From a virus (Duplodnaviria > Heunggongvirae > Uroviricota > Caudoviricetes): 12,951 nucleotides of DNA. The position numbers were made by a program, and so were the translations under genes. This document shows positions 1 to 12,951 of the stretch, one piece after another. The stretch is taken from the IMG/VR virus record IMGVR_UViG_2671180662_000002. One strand, written 5' to 3'. The first letter of the stretch is position 1. The number at the start of each line of letters is the position of its first letter. A model generated the notes under the pieces. That model had not been told where the DNA came from, ran no database searches, and was given only the letters and a program-made list of their open reading frames with translations.

Positions 1-61
1 AATCGGAAAATCGATACTGGAAAAACTCTAACTCGGTGGCCAGTTTTTGTTGACCACTTCA
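1..61 (+). mobile_element. Right terminal end (inverted repeat) of an IS3-family insertion sequence whose body lies upstream of the window
   Basis: Read on the minus strand inward from position 61, the sequence is TGAAGTGGTCAACAAAAACTGGCCAC. It starts with TGA and has GGCCAC at positions 21-26, mirroring the IS end at 12717 (TGAGGTAGCCTGAGTTTAACGGACAC, GGACAC at 21-26). IS3-family elements end 5'-TG...CA-3', and the + strand here ends ...CACTTCA at 61. All three forward frames are closed within bases 1-100, so the downstream terminase has no upstream continuation. Boundary is approximate to a few bp. Confidence 0.5.
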
Positions 62-1102
62 CCTTTCTTTCCGAACCTTGTTGATCACCTTCTGGTTAAG
101 CATCACACGGCTGATGGCGTTGAAGATGGCATTTCAATCTGCTACTTCAAGCCATACTCGCAAGGCCGTGCTCGCTGGCAGGGTGACACAATCCACGGCG
201 TGTGGTTTGACGAAGAGCCACCATACAGCATTTATGGCGAAGGTCTTACCCGTACCAACAAATACGGGCAATTCTCAATTCTGACGTTTACCCCGCTGAT
301 GGGGATGTCTGACGTTGTTACCAAGTTCCTGAAGAACCCCAGCAAGTCGCAGAAAGTGGTCAACATGACCATCTATGACGCTGAGCACTATACCGACGAG
401 CAGAAAGAGCAAATCATCGCATCATATCCCGAGCATGAGAGAGAGGCGCGTGCTCGCGGTATTCCTACGATGGGTAGTGGTCGAATCTTCCAGATACCGG
501 AAGAGACGATTAAGTGTCAGCCGTTCGAGTGTCCTGATCACTTCTACGTAATTGGCGGGATGGATTTCGGATGGGATCACCCACAGGCGCAAGTTCAGCT
601 TTGGTGGGATAAGGAGGCAGACACAATCTACGTTTCACGCGTGTGGAAGGCGAAAGAAAAAACAGCCGTTCAGGCGTGGGGAGCCGTTAAATCATGGGCG
701 CATAAAGTGCCAACCGCATGGCCTCATGATGGAAACCAGCACGAGAAGGGCGGCGGTGAGCAGCTCAAAGGGCAGTATGCAGACGCTGGATTTATGATGT
801 TGCAGGAGCATGCGACATGGCCTGATGGCGGTAACGCTGTTGAGCCAGGCATCACTGAATTGCGCGACATGATGCTCGATGGTCGCTTCAAAGTATTCAA
901 TACCTGTGAGCCATTCTTTGAGGAGTTCCGCCTCTATCACCGTGATGAAAACGGGAAAATCGTCAAGCTTAACGACGACGTGCTATCCGCCGTTCGCTAT
1001 GCATACATGATGCGCCGCTTCGCAAAAATGATGCGCGACATCAAAAAACCAAAAGAGAAAAAGATACCAGCCCCAATCAGGCCCATCGCACGGAGAACTT
1101 AA
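62..1102 (+). pseudogene. 2: Terminase large subunit (TerL), 5'-truncated: Walker B, coupling motif and nuclease domain retained, N-terminal region with Walker A absent
   Basis: Translation contains a Walker B-like GVWFDEE, an ILTFTP coupling-motif-like segment, and an RNaseH-like nuclease signature (YVIGGMDFG, then LNDDVLSAVRYA near the C-terminus). It sits immediately upstream of the portal gene, as in P22. The ORF-track start at 47 is a TTG inside the putative IS repeat, with an in-frame TAA at 29-31. About 347 codons remain, against roughly 470-500 aa for full-length P22-like TerL (recalled). Confidence 0.85.
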
Positions 1103-3268
1103 ATGGCCGACGAAAACAGACTCAATTCCATTCTGTGTAAGTTTGACGCAGACTGGATGGCGAGCGATGAAGCCAGAACCGAGGCGACAAATGACCTGTA
1201 TTTTAGCCGAGTGTCGCAATGGGATGACTGGCTATCAAACTACACTACCCTGCAATATCGCGGACAATTCGATGTTGTTCGCCCGGAGGTCAGGAAACTG
1301 GTCGCAGAGATGCGCCGGAACCCTGTCGACGTTCTCTTCCGACCCAAAGACGGCGCTAATCCTGATGCAGCCGATGTATTGATGGGGATGTATCGTACTG
1401 ATATGCGCCATAACACGGCAAAGATTGCCGTTAACGTTGGCGTTCGTGAGCAGATAGAGTCAGGCGTTGGTGCATGGCGTCTGGTCACGCAGTACGAAGA
1501 CAACGATCCAACAAGCAACAATCAGGTAATCCGACGCCTGCCAATCCATGAAGCCTGCTCACACGTCATATGGGACGCCAACAGCAAGCAGATGGATAAG
1601 AGCGACGCTAAGCACTGCACGGTGATTAACGCCTTGTCGCGCAATGGCTGGAAAGAGTTCGCAGAGGATTACGGTATTGACCCGGATACCCTGCCATCTT
1701 TCCAGAATCCTAACGATACATGGCTATTCCCGTGGGTGTCGAATGATGTCGTCTACGTCGCTGAGTATTACGAGGTAGAAGAGGAGAAGGAGAAGGTCTT
1801 CATCTACCGCGACCCGCTGACAGGTGAGCCGGTCAGCTATTACCAGCAGGATATCAAAGACGTCATCGACGACCTGGCTAATCGTGGATTCATTAAGGTA
1901 GCAGAGCGCAAGGTGAAGCGTCGGCGTGTGTATAAGTCGATCATCACCTGTACGCAGATACTGAAAGACCGCGAGAAGATAGCCGGAGAGCATATTCCAA
2001 TCGTTCCAGTGTATGGCGAATGGTCATTCGCTGGTGACAAGGAGTGCTACGAGGGTGTGGTAAGGCTGACGAAAGACGGTCAACGCCTTCGTAACATGAT
2101 TATGTCGTTCAACGCCGATATTGTTGCTCGGTCACCGAAGAAGAAACCGACCTTCTTCCCTGAGCAAATCGAAGGCTACGAATACATGTACGGCGGAAAT
2201 GATGACTATCCGTACTATCTGCAGAACAGGACTGATGAAAACGGTAACGACCTGCCGATTGGTCCAATCTCCTACATGGAAAACCCTGAAGTGCCGCAAG
2301 CCAACGCTTACATGCTTGAGGCTGCCACCAACGCAGTGAAAGAAGTGGCTAGTCTTGGCGTGGATGCGCAGGCGGCAAATGGTCAGGTCGCTTTTGATAC
2401 CGTCAATCAACTGAACATGCGGGCAGACCTTGAGACATACGTGTTTCAGGATAACCTGGCTACCGCAATGCGACGTGATGGCGAGATTTATGCCTCAATG
2501 GTCAACGATATTTATGACGTTCCTCGTCATGTAACGCTGACACTTGAAGATGGAAGCGAGAAAGACGTTCAACTCTATGCGCAAGTTGTCGATTACCAGT
2601 CCGGCAATGTGGTCACACTCAACGACATTCGCGGTCGATATGAGTGCTATACAGACGTTGGGCCATCCTTCCAGAGTATGAAGGAACAGAACCGCGCAGA
2701 GATTCAGGAGTTGCTCACCAAGGTTCCGCAAGGTACTCCAGAGTTCCAGATGCTGATGCTGCAATACTTCACGCTGCTTGACGGTAAAGGCGTCGAGATG
2801 ATGCGAGAGTACGCGAACAAGCAACTGGTGATGATGGGGCTGAAGAAACCAGAAACACCTGAAGAGATGGAGATGGTGCAGCAGGCACAACAACAGCCGC
2901 AGCAGCCATCAGCAGAGCAAATTCAGGCGCAGGGTATCCTTCTGCAAGGTCAGGCTGAATTGCTCAAGGCAGAGAACCAACAGGCGCAGATTCAGGTTGA
3001 AGCTGCCAAGGTTGAAGCCCAAAACCAACTCAACGCCGCGAAGATTGCAGAAATATTCAACAATATGGACCTCGACAAGCAGGCAGAACTGCGTGAGTAC
3101 CTCAGGCTCGTAGGTCAATTCCAGCAACAGCGCAGCAAAGATGCTCGTGCTAACGCTGAGCTGCTTCTTAAAGATGCAGACCAGACTCATTCACAACGCA
3201 TGGATTTCGCGAATCTTATGCGTCAAGTTCAAATCCCCTCCGGCGGAGTAGCCGAGACACCTCAATAA
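1103..3268 (+). CDS. 1: Portal protein (P22 gp1 family)
   Basis: 721 aa. The N-terminus ([28 protein letters not shown]...[10 protein letters not shown]) and long internal stretches ([43 protein letters not shown]) closely match my recollection of P22 gp1 (about 725 aa). The C-terminal 150 aa is Gln/Ala/Glu-rich and helical, consistent with the P22 portal barrel. GGAG ribosome-binding site 5 nt upstream; start abuts the TerL stop. Confidence 0.95.
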
Positions 3269-3281
3269 GAGAGAGTTAATC

Positions 3282-4193
3282 ATGGACCAAACCACCGACA
3301 TTCAGGCTTCTGAAGAATTAACCCTGCCCGGCAATCATGCAGCGGCATCTGCTGATGGCTTAGTTGTCGATAATGCCAACGACAGCGCAGGTCAGGAAGA
3401 AGGCTTTGAGATTGTCCGGAAAGACGATGAGAAACCAAAACAAGACCCGGCAACTAATGCTGAATTTGCCCGTCGCCGCATCGAACGCAAACGCCAGCGT
3501 GAGCTTGAGCAGCAGATGGAAGCGGTTAAGCGTGGAGAGTTGCCGGAGCACCTGCGGGTGAACCCTGAGTTACCAAAACAACCAGACCCTAACGATTATC
3601 TTTCCGAAGATGCACTGGCTAAGTACGACTATGACCAGAGCCGCGCACTGGCTGCCTTCCAGCAGGCAAACAGTGAATGGCAGATCAAGGCTATGGACGC
3701 ACGAAGCCAGGCTGTCGCCGAGCAGGGTCGCAAAACTCAGGAGTTCACCCAGCAATCAGCGCAATACGTCGAGGCGGCCCGTAAGCACTACGAGGCAGCG
3801 GAAAAGCTCAATATCCCTGACTATCAGGAGAAAGAGGATGCATTCATGCAACTGGTGCCGCCAGCAGTCGGTGCCGACATCATGCGCCTCTTCCCGGAGA
3901 AATCCGCCGCTCTCATGTATCACCTTGGTGCTAATCCTGAGAAAACACGCCAGTTGCTGGCGATGGACGGGCAATCCGCGCTGATTGAACTCACTCGACT
4001 GTCAGAACGTTTAACTCTCAAGCCTCGAGCCAAGCCTGTTTCAGAAGCCCCGTTACCTGATGAACCCATTCAGGGACATGCTGTTGCTGCAAATATCTCT
4101 GCGATTGAAAAGCAGATGGAGGCGGCAGCAAACAAAGGGGATGTAGAGACGTACCGCAAGCTCAAGGCGCAACTGAATAAAGGAATTCGATAA
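3282..4193 (+). CDS. 8: Scaffolding protein (P22 gp8 family)
   Basis: 303 aa, the same length as P22 gp8. Acidic, helical, with a basic C-terminal coat-binding region ([19 protein letters not shown]) and conserved stretches such as [30 protein letters not shown]. Sits between portal and coat. GAGAGAG ribosome-binding site upstream. Confidence 0.93.
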
Positions 4194-5488
4194 TGGCATT
4201 AAATGAAGGTCAACTGGTCACGTATGCTCTGGATGAAATCATCGGAACCGTCCAGAACCTGACGCCAATGGCGTCAAAAGTGACAAAATACCCCCCTCCG
4301 GCAGAATCCATGCAGCGTTCAAGCAACACCGTGTGGATGCCTGTTGAGCAGGAAGCGCCAACCCAGACTGGCTGGGATTTAACTGGCAACGCAACCGGGA
4401 TTCTGGAACTCTCCGTGAAGTGCAACATGGGCGATCCGGATAACGATTTCTTCGAGCTTCGTGCAGATGACCTGCGTGATGAGCGTTCTTACCGTCGCCG
4501 CATCCAGGCATCCGCCAAAAAACTGGCGAATAACATTGAGTCAGCGATTGCCAAACAGGCAACTGAAATGGGCTCGCTTGTTGTTCACGATACCCGCGCA
4601 ATTGGTCCATCGACTGGCCTGCCTGGCTGGGATTTTGTGTCTGATGCAGAGCGACTGATGTTCTCCCGTGAGCTAAACCGCGACATGGGCATCAGTTACT
4701 TCCTGAACCCTGACGATTACCGCAAAGCAGGCCGCAACCTGGTAGATGGTGACATCTTCGGGCGCGTTCCTGAAGAAGCATATCGAAACGGTACTATTCA
4801 GCGTCAGATTGCTGGCTTTGATGAAATTCTTCGCTCACCGAAACTTCCGGCAGTTACCAAGTCAACCGCGACTGGTGTAACTGTTTCTGGTGCGCAGAAG
4901 TTTAAGCCGCAGGCATACACCCTTGATACCGATGGTAACAAAGAGAACGTCGACAACCGTGTTGCAACGGTGACCGTATCCTCCACCACCGGATTTAAGC
5001 GCGGCGACAAAATCAGCTTCATTGGTGTGAAGTTCCTGTCTCAGATGGCGAAGAATGTGCTGACTGATGACGCGACTTTCTCAATCACCCGTGTGATCGA
5101 TGGTACTCACATCGAAATCACGCCGAAGCCGATTGCGCTGGATGACGCGTCACTGACAAAAGAAGAGAAGGCTTACGCTAACGTAAACACCTCTCTTGCT
5201 GATACCACTCCGGTAAACGTTCTGAACGTGGCAACAACCACCGCTAACGTGTTCTGGGCTGATGACTCAATCCGCCTGCTGTCTCAGCCGATCCCGGTAA
5301 CCCATGAACTGTTTGCTGGCATGAAAACGTCTTCCTTCAGCATTCCAGGTATTGGTGTTAACGGCATCTTCGCAACGCAGGGTGATATCAACACTCTGTC
5401 TGGTAAGTGCCGTATTGCTGTGTGGTATTCAGCATGTGCTGTACGACCAGAGGCAATTGGTGTTGGTCTGCCTAACCAGACCGCGTGA
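4193..5488 (+). CDS. 5: Major capsid (coat) protein (P22 gp5 family, HK97-like fold)
   Basis: 431 aa (P22 gp5 is 430 aa as I recall). N-terminus MALNEGQ and C-terminus [13 protein letters not shown] match P22 coat, with many conserved internal blocks ([49 protein letters not shown]). Start overlaps the scaffold stop (TAATG). Confidence 0.95.
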
Positions 5489-5496
5489 TAACCAGA

Positions 5497-5518
5497 GGGA
5501 GCTTCGGCTCCCGTTTTT
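5497..5518 (+). terminator. Rho-independent terminator-like hairpin just downstream of the coat gene
   Basis: GGGAGC (5497-5502), TTCG loop, GCTCCC (5507-5512), then G and TTTTT (5514-5518). A GC-rich 6-bp stem with a tetraloop and a T-run, 9 nt after the coat stop codon. Possibly a partial terminator or attenuator inside the late operon. Confidence 0.5.
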
Positions 5519-5532
5519 ATCTGGAGACAAGC

Positions 5533-5763
5533 ATGACACACATGATCTTTCGTCATGGCGACATGAAGAAGTGGAAAGGCGTTGGCTACGACTTTGAAAT
5601 CGTGAAAGCCGAAGAGCTTCAGGAATATCTGGATGCTGGCTGGTTTTCACATCCTGATGACCTTTTGAAGGATGTTGCAGAGCCAGAGCCAGAAGAAAAA
5701 CAGCGTAAAAAGCCTGGTCGAAAACCTAAGGCGGCAGCAGATGAACCTGACAACGAAGGGTGA
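5533..5763 (+). CDS. Small hypothetical protein (76 aa) between coat and gp4; acidic core with a Lys/Pro-rich basic tail
   Basis: ATG at 5533 with GGAG 6 nt upstream (5523-5526). Translation [76 protein letters not shown]. Its 3' end overlaps the gp4 start by 23 nt in another frame. The ORF-track start at 5485 is GTG and overlaps the coat stop; I prefer 5533. Function unknown. Confidence 0.45.
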
Positions 5764-6241
5764 TTTAGTTCTTGCGGCATTACGTAAGCTCGGTGTTGCA
5801 TCAAATGCCACGTTAACCGATGTCGAACCGCAGTCTATGGAAGACGGCGTCAACGACCTTGAAATGATGATGGCTGAATGGCTTGGCGGTGATGCGTCAC
5901 CTGGTATCAACGTTGGCTACATTTTTGCTGATGCAGATGTTGCTCCGGATCCGGGCGATGAGCACGGTTTATCAAATAACGCTATCAATGCCGTCATTTT
6001 CAACCTTGCCTGCCGAATTGCTCCAGATTATGCGCTGGAAGCGTCTGCAAAACTTATAACCACTGCCAGATACGGGAAAGAGCGACTCGTCAAACTGTCT
6101 GCAATGGACAGGGCAAAAGCAGCTAAATGTAAGTCCGGTTATCCAAACCGTATGCCTGTTGGTAGTGGTAACCAGTTGGCGAAGTGGAATGGTTGGAATT
6201 ACTTCCACCGAAAGGAACCTTGCGATAACGGGAGCGAATAA
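5741..6241 (+). CDS. 4: Tail adaptor / head-completion protein (P22 gp4 family)
   Basis: Start chosen at the internal ATG 5741 ([33 protein letters not shown]...), giving 166 aa. This matches the P22 gp4 N-terminus I recall ([21 protein letters not shown]...) and its length. Conserved [15 protein letters not shown] block. The ORF-track start at 5672 adds 23 non-homologous residues and is rejected. Confidence 0.85.
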
Positions 6242-7659
6242 TGCCTATTCAGCAACTTCCGCTTATGAAAGGTGTCGGCAAAGACTTCCGAAACGCCGAC
6301 TATATCGACTATCTGCCAGTGAATATGCTGGCTACACCCAAAGAAATCCTGAACAGCAGCGGATATCTTCGCTCATTCCCGGGCATTGCCAAACGTTCTG
6401 ACGTGAACGGTGTATCTCGCGGCGTCGAGTACAACATGGCGCAGAATGCTGTTTATCGCGTGTGTGGCGGCAAGCTGTACAAAGGAGAAAGTGAAGTCGG
6501 TGATGTTGCCGGAAGTGGTCGTGTATCAATGGCGCATGGTCGGACATCACAGGCGGTAGGCGTTAATGGTCAACTGGTCGAGTATCGCTATGATGGCACG
6601 GTCAAAACCGTCTCAAACTGGCCTACAGACAGTGGATTCACTCAGTATGAGTTAGGTTCAGTTCGCGACATTACGCGCTTACGTGGGCGTTATGCGTGGT
6701 CAAAAGACGGAACTGATTCATGGTTTATCACTGACCTTGAAGACGAATCTCATCCTGACCGTTACAGCGCACAATATCGTGCCGAGTCTCAGCCTGACGG
6801 CATCATCGGTATCGGGACATGGCGAGACTTCATCGTCTGCTTTGGTTCATCGACTATTGAATATTTCTCCCTGACTGGCGCAACCACCGTTGGTGCCGCT
6901 TTGTATGTTGCACAACCATCGCTGATGGTGCAGAAAGGCATTGCCGGAACTTACTGCAAAACGCCATTCGCTGATTCGTATGCGTTTATCAGCAATCCGG
7001 CAACGGGTGCGCCGTCTGTGTATATCATCGACTCCGGTCAGGTGTCACCAATTGCCAGCGCGAGCATTGAGAAAATCCTCCGCTCCTACACTGCTGATGA
7101 ACTGGCTGATGGTGTGATGGAATCGCTGCGATTTGATGCTCATGAGTTGCTGATTATCCACCTTCCGCGTCACGTCCTCGTGTACGACGCATCTTCAATC
7201 GCCAATGGCCCACAATGGTGTGTGCTGAAAACAGGTCTGTATGACGATGTGTACCGCGCTATCGACTTCGTTTACGAAGGCAATCAGATAACGTGCGGCG
7301 ATAAGCTGGAATCTGTTACCGGGAAACTGCAATTCGATATCAGCAGCCAGTACGACAAGCAACAGGAACACCTGCTGTTTACTCCACTCTTCAAAGCGGA
7401 TAACGCCAGAGTGTTCGACCTTGAGGTTGAATCGTCAACTGGCGTTGCGCAGTACGCCGACCGCCTTTTTCTCTCTGCAACCACTGACTGCATCAATTAC
7501 GGGCGTGAGCAGATGATTGAGCAGAATGAACCGTTCGTTTACGACAAGCGTGTTTTGTGGAAGCGAGTAGGGCGCATCAGGAAAAATGTCGGCTTCAAAT
7601 TGCGCGTTATCACGAAGTCACCTGTCACTCTGTCTGGCGCTCAGATAAGGATTGAGTAA
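6241..7659 (+). CDS. 10: Tail hub / tail accessory protein (P22 gp10 family)
   Basis: 472 aa, the same length as P22 gp10. N-terminus [49 protein letters not shown] is near-identical to my recollection of P22 gp10. Start overlaps the gp4 stop (TAATG). Confidence 0.9.
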
Positions 7660-8507
7660 TGGCTGATTCGAATCTCAATGTGCCGGTAATCATCCAAGCT
7701 ACGCGGCTCGATACATCAGTCCTTCCACGCAATATCTTCTCGCAGTCGTATCTGCTTTACGTTATCGCACAGGGCACTGATGTTGGTAACGTGGCTAACA
7801 AAGCCAACGAGGCCGGACAGGGCGCTTATGATGCACAGGTCAGGAACGATGAGCAGGATGTGATTCTCGCTGACCATGAGCAGCGAATTTCTGCTGCGGA
7901 AGCAACGCTTGTTAATCATGAGGAGCGAATCAGACAGGCAGAATCAACTCTTCAGGACCATGAAACACGAATAGCTCAGAATGAAAGCGATATTTCGTCG
8001 CTTGACACAAGAGTTCAGTCGCTGGAGTCGCAGGTTTCAGACCATGAAACGCGCATCGATGCTCTGGAGTATGCAACCACACGCAAGAAGTCAGAGGTTG
8101 TTTACTCTGGTGTATCTGTAACCATCCCGACAGCGCCGACCAACCTTGTTAGCCTGCTGAAAACGCTCACACCGTCATCCGGCTCGTTGGCACCATTCTT
8201 CGACACCGTTAACAACAAGATGGTTGTGTTCAACGAGAACAAAACCCTGCTCTTCAAGTTGTCGATTGTCGGCACGTGGCCCAGCGGAACCGCCAACAGG
8301 TCAATGCAGCTAACCTTTTCCGGCTCTGTTCCTGACACACTGGTCAGCAGTCGTAATGCGGCGACAACAACCGACAACATCCTGTTAGCTACGTTCTTCA
8401 GCGTGGATAAAGACGGCTTTCTTGCCACAAATGGCAGTACGTTAACCATTCAGTCGAATGGTGCGGCGTTTACTGCCACAACCATCAAGATAATCGCGGA
8501 GCAGTGA
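7659..8507 (+). CDS. 26: Tail needle / plug protein (P22 gp26 family) with a C-terminal knob-type domain unlike the P22 C-terminus (Sf6-type)
   Basis: 282 aa. The N-terminal 60 aa ([43 protein letters not shown]...) match the P22 gp26 N-terminus, followed by a coiled-coil segment with a 14-residue DHExRI repeat. The C-terminal ~130 aa is Ser/Thr-rich and beta-like, not P22-like. Length and architecture fit the Sf6 needle (recalled). Confidence 0.88.
7872..8069 (+). repeat. 42-bp periodic in-frame repeat encoding the trimeric coiled-coil shaft of the tail needle
   Basis: GACCATGAGCAGCGAATT at 7872, AATCATGAGGAGCGAATC at 7914, GACCATGAAACACGAATA at 7956 and GACCATGAAACGCGCATC at 8040 sit at 42-nt multiples. 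They encode D/N-H-E-x-R-I every 14 residues (two heptads). Confidence 0.7.
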
Positions 8508-8962
8508 TGATTACATTCAAACCAACGCGAAACATCGACCTGATAGAAGCAGTCGGAAATCACCCTGACATTATCGCCGGGAGCAACAACGGTGATGGAT
8601 ACGACTACAAACCTGAATGCCGTTACTTTGAGGTGAACGTGCACGGTCAGTTTGGCGGCATTGTTTACTATCAGGAGATTCAGCCGCTGACATTAGATTG
8701 CCACGCCATGTACCTGCCAGAGATTCGCGGCTTCAGCAAGGAAATTGGGCTGGCGTTCTGGCGATACATTCTGACTAACACCACCGTTCAGTGCGTAACA
8801 TCGTTCGCTGCACGCAAATTCCGACACGGTCAGATGTACTGCGCAATGATTGGCCTTAAGCGTGTAGGAACCATCAAGAAATACTTCAAAGGCGTGGATG
8901 ACGTGACTTTTTACAGCGCCACACGCGAAGAACTAATCGACTTCCTGAATCACGGGAGATAG
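8504..8962 (+). CDS. 14: gp14-position protein (virion assembly / ejection-associated), assigned by synteny
   Basis: 152 aa ORF whose start overlaps the needle stop (ATGA). It occupies the slot between gp26 and gp7 that gene 14 holds in P22. I cannot confirm sequence identity from memory, so the assignment rests on position and size only. Confidence 0.65.
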
Positions 8963-8964
8963 CC

Positions 8965-9657
8965 ATGTTATATGCATTTAAGCTGGGCAGAAAACTGCGC
9001 GGCGAGGAACCTTATTGCCCTGAAAAAGGCGGGAAAGGTGGCAGTTCTGATAAAAGCGCAAAGTATGCAGCAGAAGCCCAGAAGTATGCTGCAGACCTGC
9101 AAAATCAGCAGTGGCAGACGATCATGAAAAACCTTGCTCCGTTCACGCCTCTTGCGGAGCAGTATGTTAACCAGCTTCAGAACCTTTCCAGTTTAGAAGG
9201 TCAGGGGCAGGCACTTAATCAGTATTACAACTCTAAGCAGTATAAAGACCTTGCAGGGCAGGCGCGTTACCAGAGTCTTGCTGCTGCGGAGGCGACGGGT
9301 GGACTTGGTTCGACAGCCACAAGCAATCAACTGGCTACGATCGCGCCGACACTCGGTCAGTCTTGGTTATCAAATCAGATGAGCAATTACAACAATCTGG
9401 CAAACGTTGGGCTTGGTGCGCTGCAAGGTCAGGCAAACGCCGGGCAGACGTACGCCAACAACATGAGCAGCATTGCACAGCAAAGCGCAGCTCTTGCCGC
9501 TGCTAATGCCAATAAACCATCAAGTCTTCAGACTGCAATTAGCGGTGGCACGTCTGGTGCGATTGCCGGTGCAGGTCTTGCCAGCCTTTTGGGAACATCA
9601 ACGCCTTGGGGCGCTGGTATTGGTGCTGGTATCGGATTGCTTGGCTCGTTGTTTTAA
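8965..9657 (+). CDS. 7: Ejection (E) protein, P22 gp7 family
   Basis: 230 aa. N-terminus MLYAFKLGRKLRGEEPYCPEKGGKGGSSDKSAKYAAEAQKYAADLQNQQWQTIMKNLAPF closely matches my recollection of P22 gp7. Gln/Asn/Ala-rich body and a C-terminal Gly/Ala-rich hydrophobic segment (GAIAGAGLASLLGTSTPWGAGIGAGIGLLGSLF). GGGAGA ribosome-binding site upstream. Confidence 0.88.
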   Translation: MLYAFKLGRKLRGEEPYCPEKGGKGGSSDKSAKYAAEAQKYAADLQNQQWQTIMKNLAPFTPLAEQYVNQLQNLSSLEGQGQALNQYYNSKQYKDLAGQARYQSLAAAEATGGLGSTATSNQLATIAPTLGQSWLSNQMSNYNNLANVGLGALQGQANAGQTYANNMSSIAQQSAALAAANANKPSSLQTAISGGTSGAIAGAGLASLLGTSTPWGAGIGAGIGLLGSLF

Positions 9658-9666
9658 GGGGGAATC

Positions 9667-10998
9667 ATGGCTACTTGGCAAGGAACAAACGGCGGATTGT
9701 TGGCTGGTATCGGCGGCGTCAACTCAAACGCTCCGAGCGTAAATGACATCGGCAATACGCTTCAGCTTATCAGGCAGAACAATGATATTGAGCGTTCAGG
9801 CGCTAACAATGTTGGGCTGACTGCTTTGCAAGGTCTTTCAGGTATTGCGGGTGTTTTTCAGCAGGAAAAGCAGGCTCAGCGGCAGAAAGAATTTCAGCAG
9901 GCGTACGCTAATGCTTATGCGTCTGGTGATCGCGGTGCTTTGCGTCAGTTGGCTACTCAATATCCAGACCAGATTGAATCCGTTCGTAAAGGCATGGGAT
10001 TCATTGATGAAGAGCAGCGTAATTCTATCGGCACCTTAGCGGCTGGCGCACGCCTTGCGTCATCGTCTCCAGAAGCAATGCAATCATGGCTGCAAAACAA
10101 CGCCGGTGAGTTAGCTCGTGTTGGCGTTAATCCTCATGACGTCGCTCAGATGTACCAACAGAACCCGCGGCAGTTCGGCGAATTTGTCGATCACCTGGGG
10201 ATGAACAGTCTCGGGCCCGAAAAATACTTTGACCTACAGGATAAAATGCAGGGTCGCCAGGTTACCATGCGCGGTCAGGATCTGGATTCGCAAACCGCCG
10301 CTCGGAATCAGGCAATCACAATGCGCGGACAAGATATCCAGGCGAATTTAGGTCAGCAGCGCATTAATCTGGACGCAGAAACAAACCGCATTAACAACGA
10401 AAATAAGCGCCTTGACCGGATGCTATCAGCAGAAACTAACGACCTGAAGCGCCAGGAAATACAGAGCCGCATAGCAGCCAACAACCAGCAGTTGCAGCAG
10501 AAGCAGCAAGCGCTAAATGATGGCTACAAAGACGGCATCAACACCCTCACAACCAGCATGTTCACTCTGAACGATATCGTTAGTTCTCCTTCACTTAAGA
10601 GCATTACAGGCTTACGTGGAGTAATCCCCAACGTTCCAGGCTCACAGGCTGCAGACACTCAGGCACGACTTGATACCTTTAAATCACAAGCATACCTGAC
10701 AGCGGTTCAGGCCATGCGAGGCATGGGCGCACTTTCTGATGCCGAGGGCAAAAAGCTCGACCAGGCTGTTGGTTCGCTGCAGAACTCGCAGAGCGAGGAG
10801 TCCTTTCGTCGCAACGCTGGCGTCATCCTGAACACGCTCAACCAGAAGCGTAATGAGGCGGTTGGTAAGTACGTTCAGCAAAACGGTATCAAGCGAGTGG
10901 AAGCGCCTCAGGCTTCTATAGATTACCTGAAGCAGCACCCCGAGCTGTCAATCGACTTCATTAATCGCTACGGATATCTTCCATCTTTGGGGCAGTAA
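9667..10998 (+). CDS. 20: Ejection (E) protein, gp20-position
   Basis: 443 aa, Gln/Asn-rich and largely helical, with an internal duplicated motif (VTMRGQDLD and ITMRGQDIQ, 18 residues apart). It sits between gp7 and the last ejection gene as gene 20 does in P22 (P22 gp20 is about 471 aa, recalled). AGGGGG ribosome-binding site upstream. Assigned by synteny and composition. Confidence 0.72.
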   Translation: MATWQGTNGGLLAGIGGVNSNAPSVNDIGNTLQLIRQNNDIERSGANNVGLTALQGLSGIAGVFQQEKQAQRQKEFQQAYANAYASGDRGALRQLATQYPDQIESVRKGMGFIDEEQRNSIGTLAAGARLASSSPEAMQSWLQNNAGELARVGVNPHDVAQMYQQNPRQFGEFVDHLGMNSLGPEKYFDLQDKMQGRQVTMRGQDLDSQTAARNQAITMRGQDIQANLGQQRINLDAETNRINNENKRLDRMLSAETNDLKRQEIQSRIAANNQQLQQKQQALNDGYKDGINTLTTSMFTLNDIVSSPSLKSITGLRGVIPNVPGSQAADTQARLDTFKSQAYLTAVQAMRGMGALSDAEGKKLDQAVGSLQNSQSEESFRRNAGVILNTLNQKRNEAVGKYVQQNGIKRVEAPQASIDYLKQHPELSIDFINRYGYLPSLGQ

Positions 10999-12729
10999 AT
11001 GGCTAATTACCGTGATTTGTTAGAGCAGGCTGGCGCACGTTACGGTGTGCCAGAAGGGTTGATGACTGCACTGGGTGCCAAGGAGTCTTCTTACAACCCT
11101 GCCGCAGTAAGCTCCGCCGGGGCTGTAGGATTGACTCAGGTCATGCCTGGGACATGGCGTGATATGGGTTATACCGATGAGCAAATGCAAAACCCCGAAT
11201 ATCAGGCTGACGCTGGCGCGCGCTATCTGGCAAAGATGTACCAGCAGTTTGGTAACTGGCGTGACTCTCTTCAGGCTTATCACGACGGTCCCGGCAACGT
11301 TATGAAGGCAAAGCGTGGTGAATATACGCCAGGACCTGAAGGCCGCGGTTACGTTGATGATCGCTTTGCTCAATGGGCTGGTGACCCGGTGACAGACTCA
11401 ACAGTCGAACAGCGCGCCACCTCTGCAAAGGTACATCCTCAGCAAGACCCTAACAACCCGTTTGCACAACTGGAAGTACAGTCATCCGAACAAGTATCGG
11501 CATCAGGTGTGCAGTCAGACCCAAATAATCCATTTGCTCAGATTGAGCAGCAGGCAGCCAGTCAGCAGCCACCTCAACCCGTAAGTTCTGTCGCACCGAA
11601 ACCTGTTCAGCAACAAACAGTTAATCAGGCCAATAATGCACCAACACGGGAAGAACCATCATTGATGCAACAAGCTGGCGATTGGCTCACTGGTGGTCAA
11701 AGTGCAGGGCAAATTGCAGAACAGGCTGGTCGTGGTCTGGTAAACATACCATTTGACGTATTGCAGGGTGGCGCAAGTCTGATTAATGCAATCAGTCAGG
11801 GGCTTGGGGGGCCAAAAGTATTGGATGATGTTTATCGTCCAGTAGACAGACCGACAGACCCCTACGCGCAAGCTGGAGAGTCAATAGGCGGTTATCTTGT
11901 TCCTGGAGCAGGTGTAGCTGGAAACATGGTCATTGGTTCTCTCGCTGACGCGGCGAATCAACGGGGTGATTTTGCCGAAAATGCCGCTATTAATGCCGGA
12001 CTTAGCATTGCTACGCATGGCCTGATAAATGGCGTTACCCGTGGTGTTCGTGGTGCATCAAATATAATTAGTGGCAATAAAACATCTGCACAGAGAGCGA
12101 CCACTGCGCCAACAGAAACATCACCATTCTCCGGTGATGCCGCTGCAGCAACAAATCCTGCGGTTCATGCCGCAGAGGCAAGAGTAGCACAAGGTGTACC
12201 AATGACGCCTGCGACGAAGAACCCAGAGGAAGTCGTTCGCACAGTAGCAGCACAAAAAAGGCCAAATCTCGCTTCATCGCTTGATGAACTAGATATCAAT
12301 CCTCAGGCTGAAGTTCTGGAGTCTGCTGAAAGGCTTAATGTTGATTCATTACTCCCTTCACACTTTTCCGGGAACGAGCAATACAAGGCAGTTGAGCAAG
12401 CAATCAAGTCCCGTGCGGGTTCTGCTCTACAGGTGCAGGAAAATGAAGCAATCAGGCAGCTAGCACAGGGCGCGGGTGAGATAATTGATCGCGTTTCCGG
12501 TGCAAAAGATGCTCTTGGTATGAGCGACAAGTTTATTGATACGGTCAATGGAAGAATGTCTGCGCTGATGAAACGAAGCGACCAGCTTTATCGCAATGTT
12601 GAAAAGGCGATGCCTGCAGGTGCAAAAATTGATGCGCCATCAACAAGGTCAATGCTCAAACAGGTGGCAGAAGATCTTGGCGGGATGAAAAACCTTGACC
12701 CTATTGAAAAGAGAGTTGAGGTAGCCTGA
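10999..12729 (+). CDS. 16: Ejection (E) protein at the gp16 position, with an N-terminal lytic transglycosylase (SLT) domain; the last codons and stop come from the adjacent IS inverted repeat, so it is probably 3'-truncated
   Basis: 576 aa. Residues about 8-115 carry family-1 lytic transglycosylase motifs: AKESSYNP (candidate catalytic Glu29), [10 protein letters not shown], and [10 protein letters not shown] tandem motif DPNNPFAQ(L/I)E follows. The C-terminal half is Ala/Gly-rich. The stop TGA at 12727-12729 lies inside the putative IS left repeat, which starts about 12717. Start abuts the gp20 stop. Confidence 0.78.
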
Positions 12730-12951
12730 GTTTAACGGACACTCCTTCCTGAAATAGAATGGCATCAGAAGGAGCTAATAATGAGCAGAAAAACCCAACG
12801 TTACTCTAAAGAGTTCAAAGCCGAAGCTGTCAGAACGGTTCTTGAAAATCAACTTTCGATCAGTGAAGGCGCTTCCCGATTATCCCTTCCTGAAGGCACT
12901 TTAGGACAATGGGTTACCGCCGCCAGAAAAGGGCTCGGTACTCCTGGTTCC
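12717..12951 (+). mobile_element. Left end of an IS3-family insertion sequence (IS600-like), continuing beyond the window end
   Basis: Terminal repeat TGAGGTAGCCTGAGTTTAACGGACAC starts with TG and has GGACAC at positions 21-26, as in the IS3 left repeat I recall (TGATCTTACCCAGCAATAGTGGACAC). It is followed by an AGGAG ribosome-binding site and an OrfA-type reading frame. Exact first base is uncertain by a few nt. Confidence 0.8.
12781..12951 (+). CDS. IS3-family transposase OrfA (helix-turn-helix DNA-binding N-terminal part), 3'-partial at window end
   Basis: ATG at 12781 with AGGAG 7 nt upstream. Translation MSRKTQRYSKEFKAEAVRTVLENQLSISEGASRLSLPEGTLGQWVTAARKGLGTPGS has the short basic N-terminus and helix-turn-helix typical of IS3-family OrfA. 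It resembles what I recall for IS600 of Shigella. The ORF runs off the end of the window. Confidence 0.85.
   Translation, partial: MSRKTQRYSKEFKAEAVRTVLENQLSISEGASRLSLPEGTLGQWVTAARKGLGTPGS

What the first reader, a model, noticed from the sequence alone, without database searches (positions are those of the whole stretch)
1..120. Terminase large subunit is decapitated at an IS junction and lacks its Walker A region
The terminase reading frame has an in-frame TAA at 29-31 and no ATG start, and the other two forward frames close at 82-84 and 49-51. Walker B (GVWFDEE) sits only about 50 codons into the retained sequence, whereas terminase ATPase domains place Walker A roughly 90 residues upstream of Walker B. 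The ATP-binding part of the packaging motor is therefore missing, while the nuclease domain appears intact. A free-standing nuclease-only remnant could in principle still be expressed if the IS supplies an outward promoter.
Basis: partly seen in the sequence, partly recalled or inferred. Interest (0 to 1): 0.5.

Follow-up and report, generated by a model that had tools for sequence, protein, structure and literature searches.

The report
IS911-truncated phage terminase gene remnant
The first 61 bases are the right end of the insertion sequence IS911, which has cut off the first 153 codons of a P22-type phage DNA-packaging (terminase) gene in a defective Shigella flexneri prophage; this is an ordinary dead gene remnant already annotated in public genomes.

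Summary
Window 1-61 is the right end (IRR) of IS911, 62/62 identical to annotated copies. Terminase DNA starts at base 62. Against the 499-aa large terminases of phages IME10 (99% identity) and P22 (89%), the window keeps codons 154-499. It lacks residues 1-153, which carry the small-terminase-binding N-terminus and Walker A (GNQLGKS, 61-67). Walker B, the nuclease domain (P22 289-499, Asp321) and the basic C-terminal tail are intact.

Corrections:
- The third-frame stop is at 51-53, not 49-51. It is the real stop of the IS911 transposase orfB.
- TAA 29-31 lies inside the IS.
- Walker A sits about 136 residues upstream of Walker B, not about 90.

The window is 100% identical over 1-12801 to a Shigella flexneri chromosome. 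No 5' terminase half or small-terminase gene lies within about 9 kb upstream in eight chromosomes, and the IS has no target duplication, so this is a real loss. The IS600 at 12717 also truncates the last phage gene.

The IRR carries an outward -35 (TTGACC, 50-55), but no usable -10 follows. Read-through from the co-oriented transposase is possible but untested. The isolated P22 nuclease is reported to be inactive. Ordinary; low interest.

The parts
1..61 (+). Right end of IS911 (IS3 family). The element reads left to right and ends ...GTTGACCACTTCA-3' at base 61.
   Evidence: 62/62 identity to annotated IS911 / IS3 transposase ends. The full 1249-bp element with intact orfA and orfB is seen in L004, which is 100% identical to the window over 1-12801.
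3..53 (+). Last 16 codons of IS911 orfB (...SENRYWKNSNSVASFC) and its stop TGA 51-53. This is frame 3, a different frame from the terminase remnant.
   Evidence: ORF 8112..8951 in L004 ends at window 53; gene calls.
26..61 (+). IS911 right inverted repeat (IRR). The 36-bp length is from my knowledge of IS911; the sequence matches the left repeat (IRL) in inverted orientation at its tip.
   Evidence: Comparison of the IRR and IRL ends in the loci.
50..55 (+). Outward-facing -35-like hexamer TTGACC in the IRR. This is the -35 half of the IS911 circle-junction promoter.
   Evidence: Sequence. PMC9330008 states that IS911 has an outward -35 in its IRR. No matching -10 lies downstream.
62..1102 (+). 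5'-truncated large terminase gene (terL', P22 gene 2 type): codons 154-499 plus the stop.
   Evidence: 99% identical to phage IME10 gp2 and 89% to P22 gp2 over residues 154-499. Pfam Terminase_6N (partial) plus Terminase_6C.
197..217 (+). Walker B / catalytic glutamate motif GVWFDEE (full-length residues 199-205).
   Evidence: Translation; alignment A1.
467..1099 (+). Complete nuclease domain plus basic C-terminal tail (P22 gp2 residues 289-499). The catalytic Asp321 codon is at 563-565.
   Evidence: Match to PDB 4dkw over 289-497. Domain limits and Asp321 are from PMC11728703.
1103..12716 (+). The rest of the P22-like virion gene block: portal, scaffold, coat, gp4, gp10, gp26 needle, gp14, gp7, gp20, and a 3'-truncated gp16-like ejection/transglycosylase gene (10999-12716).
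   Evidence: Pfam families of the called genes; ORFs. The phage Sf101 homologue of the last gene is 911 aa, against 572 phage codons here.
12717..12951 (+). Left end of IS600 (IRL TGAGGTAGCC..., orfA start at 12782). It supplies the last 4 codons (three residues, EVA, plus the stop) of the truncated gp16-like ORF.

Best explanation
Window 1-120 is the junction between a complete IS911 element and the 3' two-thirds of the large terminase gene of a defective P22-like (Lederbergvirus) prophage in the Shigella flexneri chromosome.

An IS911 insertion in codon 153/154 of terL was followed by IS-mediated deletion or rearrangement. This removed the 5' third of the gene, which carries the small-terminase-binding helix, Walker A and about half of the ATPase fold, together with the small-terminase gene. 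The remaining 346 codons are a pseudogene fragment. It cannot bind or hydrolyse ATP, cannot be recruited by TerS and cannot package DNA.

The 12.65-kb phage block (terL' to gp16') is bounded by IS911 on the left and IS600 on the right, each of which cuts into a gene. The prophage is therefore a fossil.

Shown: the junction, the missing residues, the intact nuclease domain, and the absence of the 5' half nearby.

Inferred: the order of events, and that any transcript or protein from terL' is incidental. Such expression could arise by read-through from the IS911 transposase genes, with possible re-initiation at TTG 50, which overlaps the orfB stop as TTGA.
For: - IS end: 62/62 identity to IS911.
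- Homology to phage terL starts at 59-62 in all 25 listed records, of 114 matching phage records.
- The alignment shows that residues 1-153 are absent.
- Pfam Terminase_6N is matched over positions 73-214/215 only; Terminase_6C is matched in full.
- The PDB holds the N-terminal 33-residue peptide (6vi1/6xmi) and the nuclease domain 289-499 (4dkw). Only the nuclease part is retained here.
- The source is S. flexneri chromosomes: L004 is 100% identical over 12,801 bases, and the exact 350-aa product is deposited as 'putative terminase large subunit [Shigella flexneri]'.
- No terL N-terminus or gp3-like gene lies in the roughly 9 kb held upstream of the junction in 8 loci.
- The IS flanks TCT and CCT are not a target duplication.
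- The same terL nucleotide abuts IS911 in three different states across strains.
- Strain 2457T carries an extra frameshift in terL'. Together with the three states, this argues that nothing constrains the remnant.
- IS600 truncates gp16' at the other edge.
Against: - The 346-codon frame is still open in most strains and is 99.4% identical to a working phage gene. However, terL' is base-for-base identical between the window and the most divergent copy compared (L005), so there is no divergence from which to judge selection either way.
- It lies directly downstream of, and co-oriented with, an intact transposase, with no terminator-like site between them. Some expression therefore cannot be excluded.
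- Only about 9 kb upstream was examined. The 5' half could survive elsewhere in the chromosome.
Confidence: 0.9

Rival explanations
1. Simple IS insertion: the gene is merely split, with the 5' half lying intact on the other side of the 1.25-kb IS911. Precise excision or recombination could then restore it.
For: The window itself cannot show what lies left of the IS, and IS911 normally inserts with a 3-bp duplication.
Against: - In L004 and L008, which carry the same junction, the DNA left of the IS is an unrelated minus-strand gene of a lambdoid remnant.
- tblastn with TerL 1-152 and with the gp3-like protein finds nothing in 8 loci.
- The flanks TCT and CCT are not a duplication.
Confidence: 0.02
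2. Assembly artefact: the 61 IS bases are a repeat-collapse overhang at a contig end, and the real genome has a full-length terL.
For: - The window looks like a whole short-read contig bounded by IS911 and IS600.
- Most contigs carrying the identical portal protein are 10-20 kb long.
Against: - The identical junction occurs inside complete chromosomes of 4.4-4.7 Mb (L004 100%, L008 99.99%).
- Two sister variants occur at the same nucleotide in six further chromosomes.
Confidence: 0.01
3. This terminase clade naturally starts near this position, or uses a downstream Walker A.
For: None beyond the open frame.
Against: - The compared full-length relatives, IME10 gp2 and P22 gp2, are 499 aa, as are six 499-aa members of the exact product's protein cluster. 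IME10 and P22 have Walker A at residues 61-67.
- DNA homology stops exactly at the IS end.
- No P-loop motif is present in the retained 346 residues.
Confidence: 0.01
4. The remnant is expressed and does something. The candidates are a free nuclease, or an ATPase-dead decoy that still carries the C-terminal part of TerL and interferes with the packaging motor of incoming P22-like phages. It would be driven by IS911 read-through or by an IRR hybrid promoter.
For: - The frame is open.
- An in-frame TTG at 50-52 overlaps the orfB stop (TTGA), with a weak GGTGG Shine-Dalgarno-like site upstream.
- There is no terminator-like site between orfB and terL'.
- The IRR carries an outward -35.
- Phages with closely similar virion genes infect S. 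flexneri (Sf101, Sf6).
Against: - No -10 follows (2 of 6 at best) and the scan finds no promoter.
- A transcript starting from such a hybrid promoter would begin downstream of TTG 47 and TTG 50.
- In other strains the IS is flipped so that the transposase points away, or a 9-nt stub changes the spacing. 2457T has a frameshift.
- The isolated P22 nuclease is inactive in vitro (PMC5389665).
- The half ATPase fold is likely to be unstable (inference).
Confidence: 0.05

Closest known systems
Large terminase gp2 of Salmonella phage P22 and Escherichia phage IME10 (Lederbergvirus; Pfam Terminase_6N + Terminase_6C; PDB 4dkw nuclease domain)
   Same: Residues 154-499 are 89% (P22) and 99% (IME10) identical. 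Walker B, the nuclease domain with Asp321 and the basic C-terminal tail are retained, followed by the portal gene as in the phages.
   Different: It lacks residues 1-153 (TerS-binding N-terminus, Walker A and the first half of the ATPase fold), has no native start codon and has no small-terminase gene upstream.
IS911 (IS3 family), first described in Shigella; copy-out/paste-in element whose IRR carries the -35 of the circle-junction promoter
   Same: The terminal 61 bases are identical to annotated IS911 copies. orfB ends inside the IRR, and the outward TTGACC is present.
   Different: There is no 3-bp target duplication at this copy. The same junction carries the IS in either orientation, or with a 9-nt IRL stub, in other strains. 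This points to secondary IS-mediated rearrangements rather than a single clean insertion.
IS-eroded cryptic prophages of Shigella genomes (a general, well-known phenomenon; my own knowledge)
   Same: A block of phage genes bounded and truncated by IS elements (IS911 on the left, IS600 on the right), conserved across S. flexneri strains.
   Different: Nothing distinguishes it in kind. I found no paper describing this particular remnant. It is, however, annotated in public records.
Sf6 large terminase gp2
   Same: Same role, in a phage with closely related virion genes 8-12.
   Different: There is no detectable sequence similarity (BLASTP E = 0.065). Sf6 uses a different terminase type, so it cannot be used to count missing residues.

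Membership tests
P22-type large terminase (TerL, gp2) | N-terminal segment (residues 1-33) that is solved in complex with other terminase chains (PDB 6vi1/6xmi) | tested here: not met
   Residues 1-153 are absent.
P22-type large terminase (TerL, gp2) | Walker A P-loop (GNQLGKS, residues 61-67) | tested here: not met
   Absent from the translation. The Pfam Terminase_6N match starts at profile position 73.
P22-type large terminase (TerL, gp2) | Walker B / catalytic glutamate (GVWFDEE) | tested here: met
   Window 197-217, identical to P22 and IME10.
P22-type large terminase (TerL, gp2) | RNase H-like nuclease domain with catalytic Asp321, plus the basic C-terminal tail | tested here: met
   Terminase_6C positions 1-154/155 are matched. 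The alignment to 4dkw covers 289-497, and the Asp codon is at 563-565.
P22-type large terminase (TerL, gp2) | ATP-driven packaging and headful cleavage activity | not testable with these tools
   Activity is expected to be lost, from the missing P-loop (inference). The isolated P22 nuclease is inactive in vitro (PMC5389665).
IS911 (IS3 family) | Terminal inverted repeat ending ...CA-3' and matching the IS911 IRR | tested here: met
   62/62 identity to annotated IS911 ends. The IRR and IRL are compared.
IS911 (IS3 family) | Full element with orfA, orfB (rve integrase core) and a frameshift fusion | tested here: met
   This is seen in L004 (100% identical to the window over 1-12801), not in the window itself. 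The element is 1249 bp, with orfA of 100 aa from its ATG and orfB ending at window 53.
IS911 (IS3 family) | 3-bp direct target duplication flanking the element | tested here: not met
   The flanks are TCT (left) and CCT (right) in L004 and L008. This is consistent with an adjacent deletion or rearrangement after insertion.
P22-like (Lederbergvirus) prophage | Late gene order terS-terL-portal-scaffold-coat-gp4-gp10-gp26-gp14-gp7-gp20-gp16-tailspike | tested here: inconclusive
   The order from portal to gp16 is present and collinear. terS, the 5' part of terL, the 3' part of gp16 and the tailspike are missing from the block. It is a fragment of such a prophage, not a complete one.

The most novel reading that the evidence does not exclude
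The ATPase-dead TerL fragment (half an ATPase fold, the nuclease domain and the C-terminal tail) is co-translated at a low level from the IS911 transposase message, through the TTGA stop/start overlap. It then acts as a decoy that poisons the packaging motors of superinfecting P22-like Shigella phages. In that reading the IS-bounded remnant is a retained anti-phage element, not junk.
Probability: 0.03. Interest if true: 0.5.

Novelty: already known. Interest (0 to 1): 0.1.

Why it matters
It matters little beyond correct annotation. The CDS that some pipelines call 'putative terminase large subunit' in S. flexneri is a 5'-truncated pseudogene at an IS911 end. The prophage block it heads cannot package DNA. 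The locus is a tidy natural example of IS911 and IS600 eroding a prophage, and of IS911 being re-arranged repeatedly at one nucleotide. It is useful as a strain marker, but it is not a new biological system.

Tried and rejected
- **Sf6 comparison.** Sf6 uses a different terminase type, so P22 and IME10 were used instead.
- **Original IS911 promoter papers.** PMC1169952 and PMC125674 are not held. The outward -35 is cited from the review PMC9330008, and the exact published hexamers could not be checked.
- **Published description of the remnant.** The literature search found nothing specific. The epsilon34 genome paper mentions S. flexneri only for serotype conversion.
- **Donor of the divergent patch.** I looked for the donor of the 6000-10500 patch that distinguishes strain lineages. 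Both versions are about 95-96% identical to Sf6, phiKp_30 and Dewey, with no clear donor.
- **gp16'-IS600 junction in E. coli O26.** It does not recur there. That IS600 sits in a nin region, and the 16 extra aligned bases are chance.
- **Selection test on terL'.** Comparison between strain lineages is not informative, because there are zero substitutions in terL'.
- **A 172-aa gene beside the lambdoid lysis cassette upstream.** It is not a small terminase; it matches PHROGs of unknown function.

Full report
**1. The observation**

I read window 1-1500 and tabulated stops and starts in the three forward frames.
- The frame that ends at the terminase stop (1100-1102) has TAA at 29-31.
- That frame has no ATG before 299. 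Its other in-frame starts are TTG 47, TTG 50 and GTG 200.
- Frame 3 first closes at TGA 51-53, not 49-51.
- GVWFDEE is encoded at 197-217.

So the description is accurate apart from a 2-base slip.

**2. What the first 61 bases are**

Window 1-62 is 100% identical (E = 1e-23) to sequences annotated 'IS3-like element IS911 family transposase' or 'integrase core domain-containing protein'. These occur in 3360 E. coli records, on chromosomes and plasmids.

In an annotated example the transposase is co-oriented with the window and ends within these bases. In locus L004, which is 100% identical to the window over 1-12801, the complete element runs from TGAAGTGGCACAC... (IRL) to ...GTTGACCACTTCA (IRR). 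It has an intact orfA and orfB. orfB ends ...NSNSVASFC at TGA, which is window 51-53.

Window 1-61 is therefore the right end of IS911. The frame-3 stop is the real transposase stop, and TAA 29-31 is simply IS sequence that happens to lie in the terminase frame.

**3. What follows**

Megablast against phage genomes finds 114 records. In the 25 listed, homology starts at window 59-62, under genes annotated as terminase large subunit and portal. The best matches are E. coli Lederbergvirus phages IME10 and APC_JM3.2 (97.6%); P22 is 81% identical at the DNA level.

At the junction IME10 reads AAG TCT CCT, whereas the window reads TCA CCT. The TCA is the IS terminus, so phage DNA begins at base 62.

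- IME10 gp2 and P22 gp2 are both 499 aa. The window aligns to residues 154-499 (99% and 89% identity) and has nothing for residues 1-153.
- Walker A (GNQLGKS) is at residues 61-67 and Walker B at 199-205. The spacing is therefore about 136 residues, not about 90, but the conclusion stands.
- Pfam matches Terminase_6N only over profile positions 73-214/215, and Terminase_6C completely.
- In the PDB, the family has a solved N-terminal 33-residue peptide (6vi1/6xmi) and the nuclease domain 289-499 (4dkw). Only the nuclease part is retained.
- PMC11728703 gives the P22 gp2 layout as ATPase 38-284, nuclease 313-482 and basic tail 483-499, with catalytic Asp321. Asp321 is at window 563-565.

The remnant is thus the second half of the ATPase fold, the linker, the nuclease domain and the tail. 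It is not strictly 'nuclease-only'. Sf6 gp2, the other comparator proposed, is unrelated in sequence.

**4. Where it comes from, and whether the 5' half survives**

The portal protein encoded at 1103-3268 occurs with identical sequence in 2711 blocks of public assemblies. Most of these have a longest carrying contig of 10-20 kb, and some are chromosomes of more than 1 Mb. These include AE014073 and CP000266, which I know as S. flexneri 2457T and 8401.

The exact 350-aa product (starting at TTG 50) is deposited as 'putative terminase large subunit [Shigella flexneri]'. No complete E. coli genome in the collection carries the junction; the best hits all start at 59-62.

In eight chromosomal loci covering about 9 kb upstream of the junction, tblastn with TerL 1-152 and with the IME10 gp3-like small terminase finds nothing. 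Upstream lie IS elements, a lambdoid lysis cassette in the opposite orientation, and type VI secretion genes. The IS flanks in the window-type arrangement are TCT and CCT, which is not a target duplication. The 5' third of terL and the small-terminase gene are therefore truly gone from the neighbourhood. 'Decapitated' is the right word.

**5. The junction has a history**

The same terL nucleotide abuts IS911 in three states:
- (A) IRR abuts terL (window, L004, L008).
- (B) The IS lies in the opposite orientation, so IRL abuts terL. In L003 it is flipped between the very same flanks as in A. In L006 and L010 it is the second of two inverted copies that enclose the lysis cassette.
- (C) IRR is followed by a 9-nt stub of an IRL tip (GCCACTTCA) and then terL (L005, L007, L009).

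In L006 and L010 the first IS911 copy has a perfect TCT duplication. That arrangement therefore looks older, and the window type looks like a deletion running from one IS end exactly to the other.

I infer one ancestral insertion in terL, followed by IS911 end-directed deletions or replacements. I did not test the mechanism.

**6. The other edge**

IS600 begins at 12717 (TGAGGTAGCC...). It cuts the gp16-like ejection/transglycosylase gene after 572 codons. The homologue in S. flexneri phage Sf101 is 911 aa. The 12.65-kb phage block is thus truncated by an IS at both ends and lacks a tailspike gene. It is a fossil of a P22-like prophage.

**7. Could the remnant be expressed?**

The IS911 IRR is known to carry an outward -35 that pairs with a -10 in the IRL when the element circularises (PMC9330008). 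That hexamer (TTGACC) is at 50-55 and faces terL'. Three results argue against a hybrid promoter:
- At spacings of 15-19 nt the best -10 matches 2 of 6 positions.
- The consensus scan finds no promoter in window 1-1200 or across the IS in L004.
- A transcript from such a hybrid promoter would begin after TTG 47 and TTG 50. The next in-frame starts (GTG 200, ATG 299 and 305) have poor ribosome-binding contexts, except for a distant AGGGTGA before GTG 200.

The more plausible route is read-through from the co-oriented transposase genes:
- No terminator-like site lies on the + strand between orfB and terL'.
- TTG 50-52 overlaps the orfB stop as TTGA, a coupling-like arrangement that gene callers accept.

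This is inference only. Against any function:
- In state B the transposase points away from terL'.
- In state C the spacing differs by 9 nt.
- 2457T has a 1-nt deletion that splits terL'.

terL' is base-identical between the window and L005, the most divergent copy compared, so no test of selection is possible.

**8. Verdict**

The finding is correct and well read. It describes an ordinary, already annotated IS-truncated prophage pseudogene in Shigella flexneri.
- Novelty: already known.
- Interest: about 0.1.
- Most novel reading not excluded: a low-level, IS-driven dominant-negative terminase fragment, which I put at about 3%.

Noticed in passing
window 61/62; L003 8947-8959, L004 8947-8959, L005 8938-8959, L006 8946-8958: The same terL nucleotide abuts IS911 in three states in complete S. 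flexneri chromosomes: IRR-abutting, IRL-abutting, and IRR plus a 9-nt IRL stub (GCCACTTCA). In L003 versus L004 the IS is flipped between identical flanks. This suggests repeated IS911 end-directed events at one site.
   Followed up: partly
window 12717-12951 (gene 10999-12729): IS600 starts at 12717 and truncates the gp16-like ejection/transglycosylase gene: 572 phage codons, then three IS-encoded residues (EVA) and the IS-encoded stop, against 911 aa in phage Sf101. The phage block is therefore cut by an IS at both ends and has no tailspike gene.
   Followed up: yes
window 6000-10500 versus L005 14890-19395: Of 166 substitutions between the window and the L005-type copy, almost all fall in genes gp10 to gp20, while the flanks (including terL') are identical. 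This looks like a recombination patch acquired by a defective prophage. Both versions are about 95-96% identical to Sf6 and other phages, and no donor was identified.
   Followed up: partly
L006 around 9648 (window about 750): The AE014073 chromosome copy (L006) has a 1-nt deletion that splits terL' into 186-aa and 124-aa calls. It is either further decay or an error in the deposited sequence.
   Followed up: no
window 47-53: The IS911 orfB stop TGA (51-53) overlaps an in-frame TTG (50-52) of the terminase frame, giving TTGA. Pipelines therefore annotate a 350-aa 'putative terminase large subunit' with a 4-nt overlap to the transposase.
   Followed up: partly
window 12801 versus L004 21699: L004 has a further IS3-family element inserted into the IS600 at this point; from memory of its end sequence I read it as IS629/IS1203-like, and this was not tested. 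The window reads straight on into IS600 orfA. The window's overall shape (61 nt of IS911, then the phage block, then 235 nt of IS600) suggests that it is a whole short-read contig ending in repeats.
   Followed up: no
L005 2216-7362, L006 4974-7724 (upstream of the window): A lambdoid lysis cassette (holin, DUF1327, lysozyme, Rz) lies upstream in the opposite orientation to the P22-like block. It is next to type VI secretion genes and probably belongs to a second prophage remnant joined by IS rearrangement.
   Followed up: no
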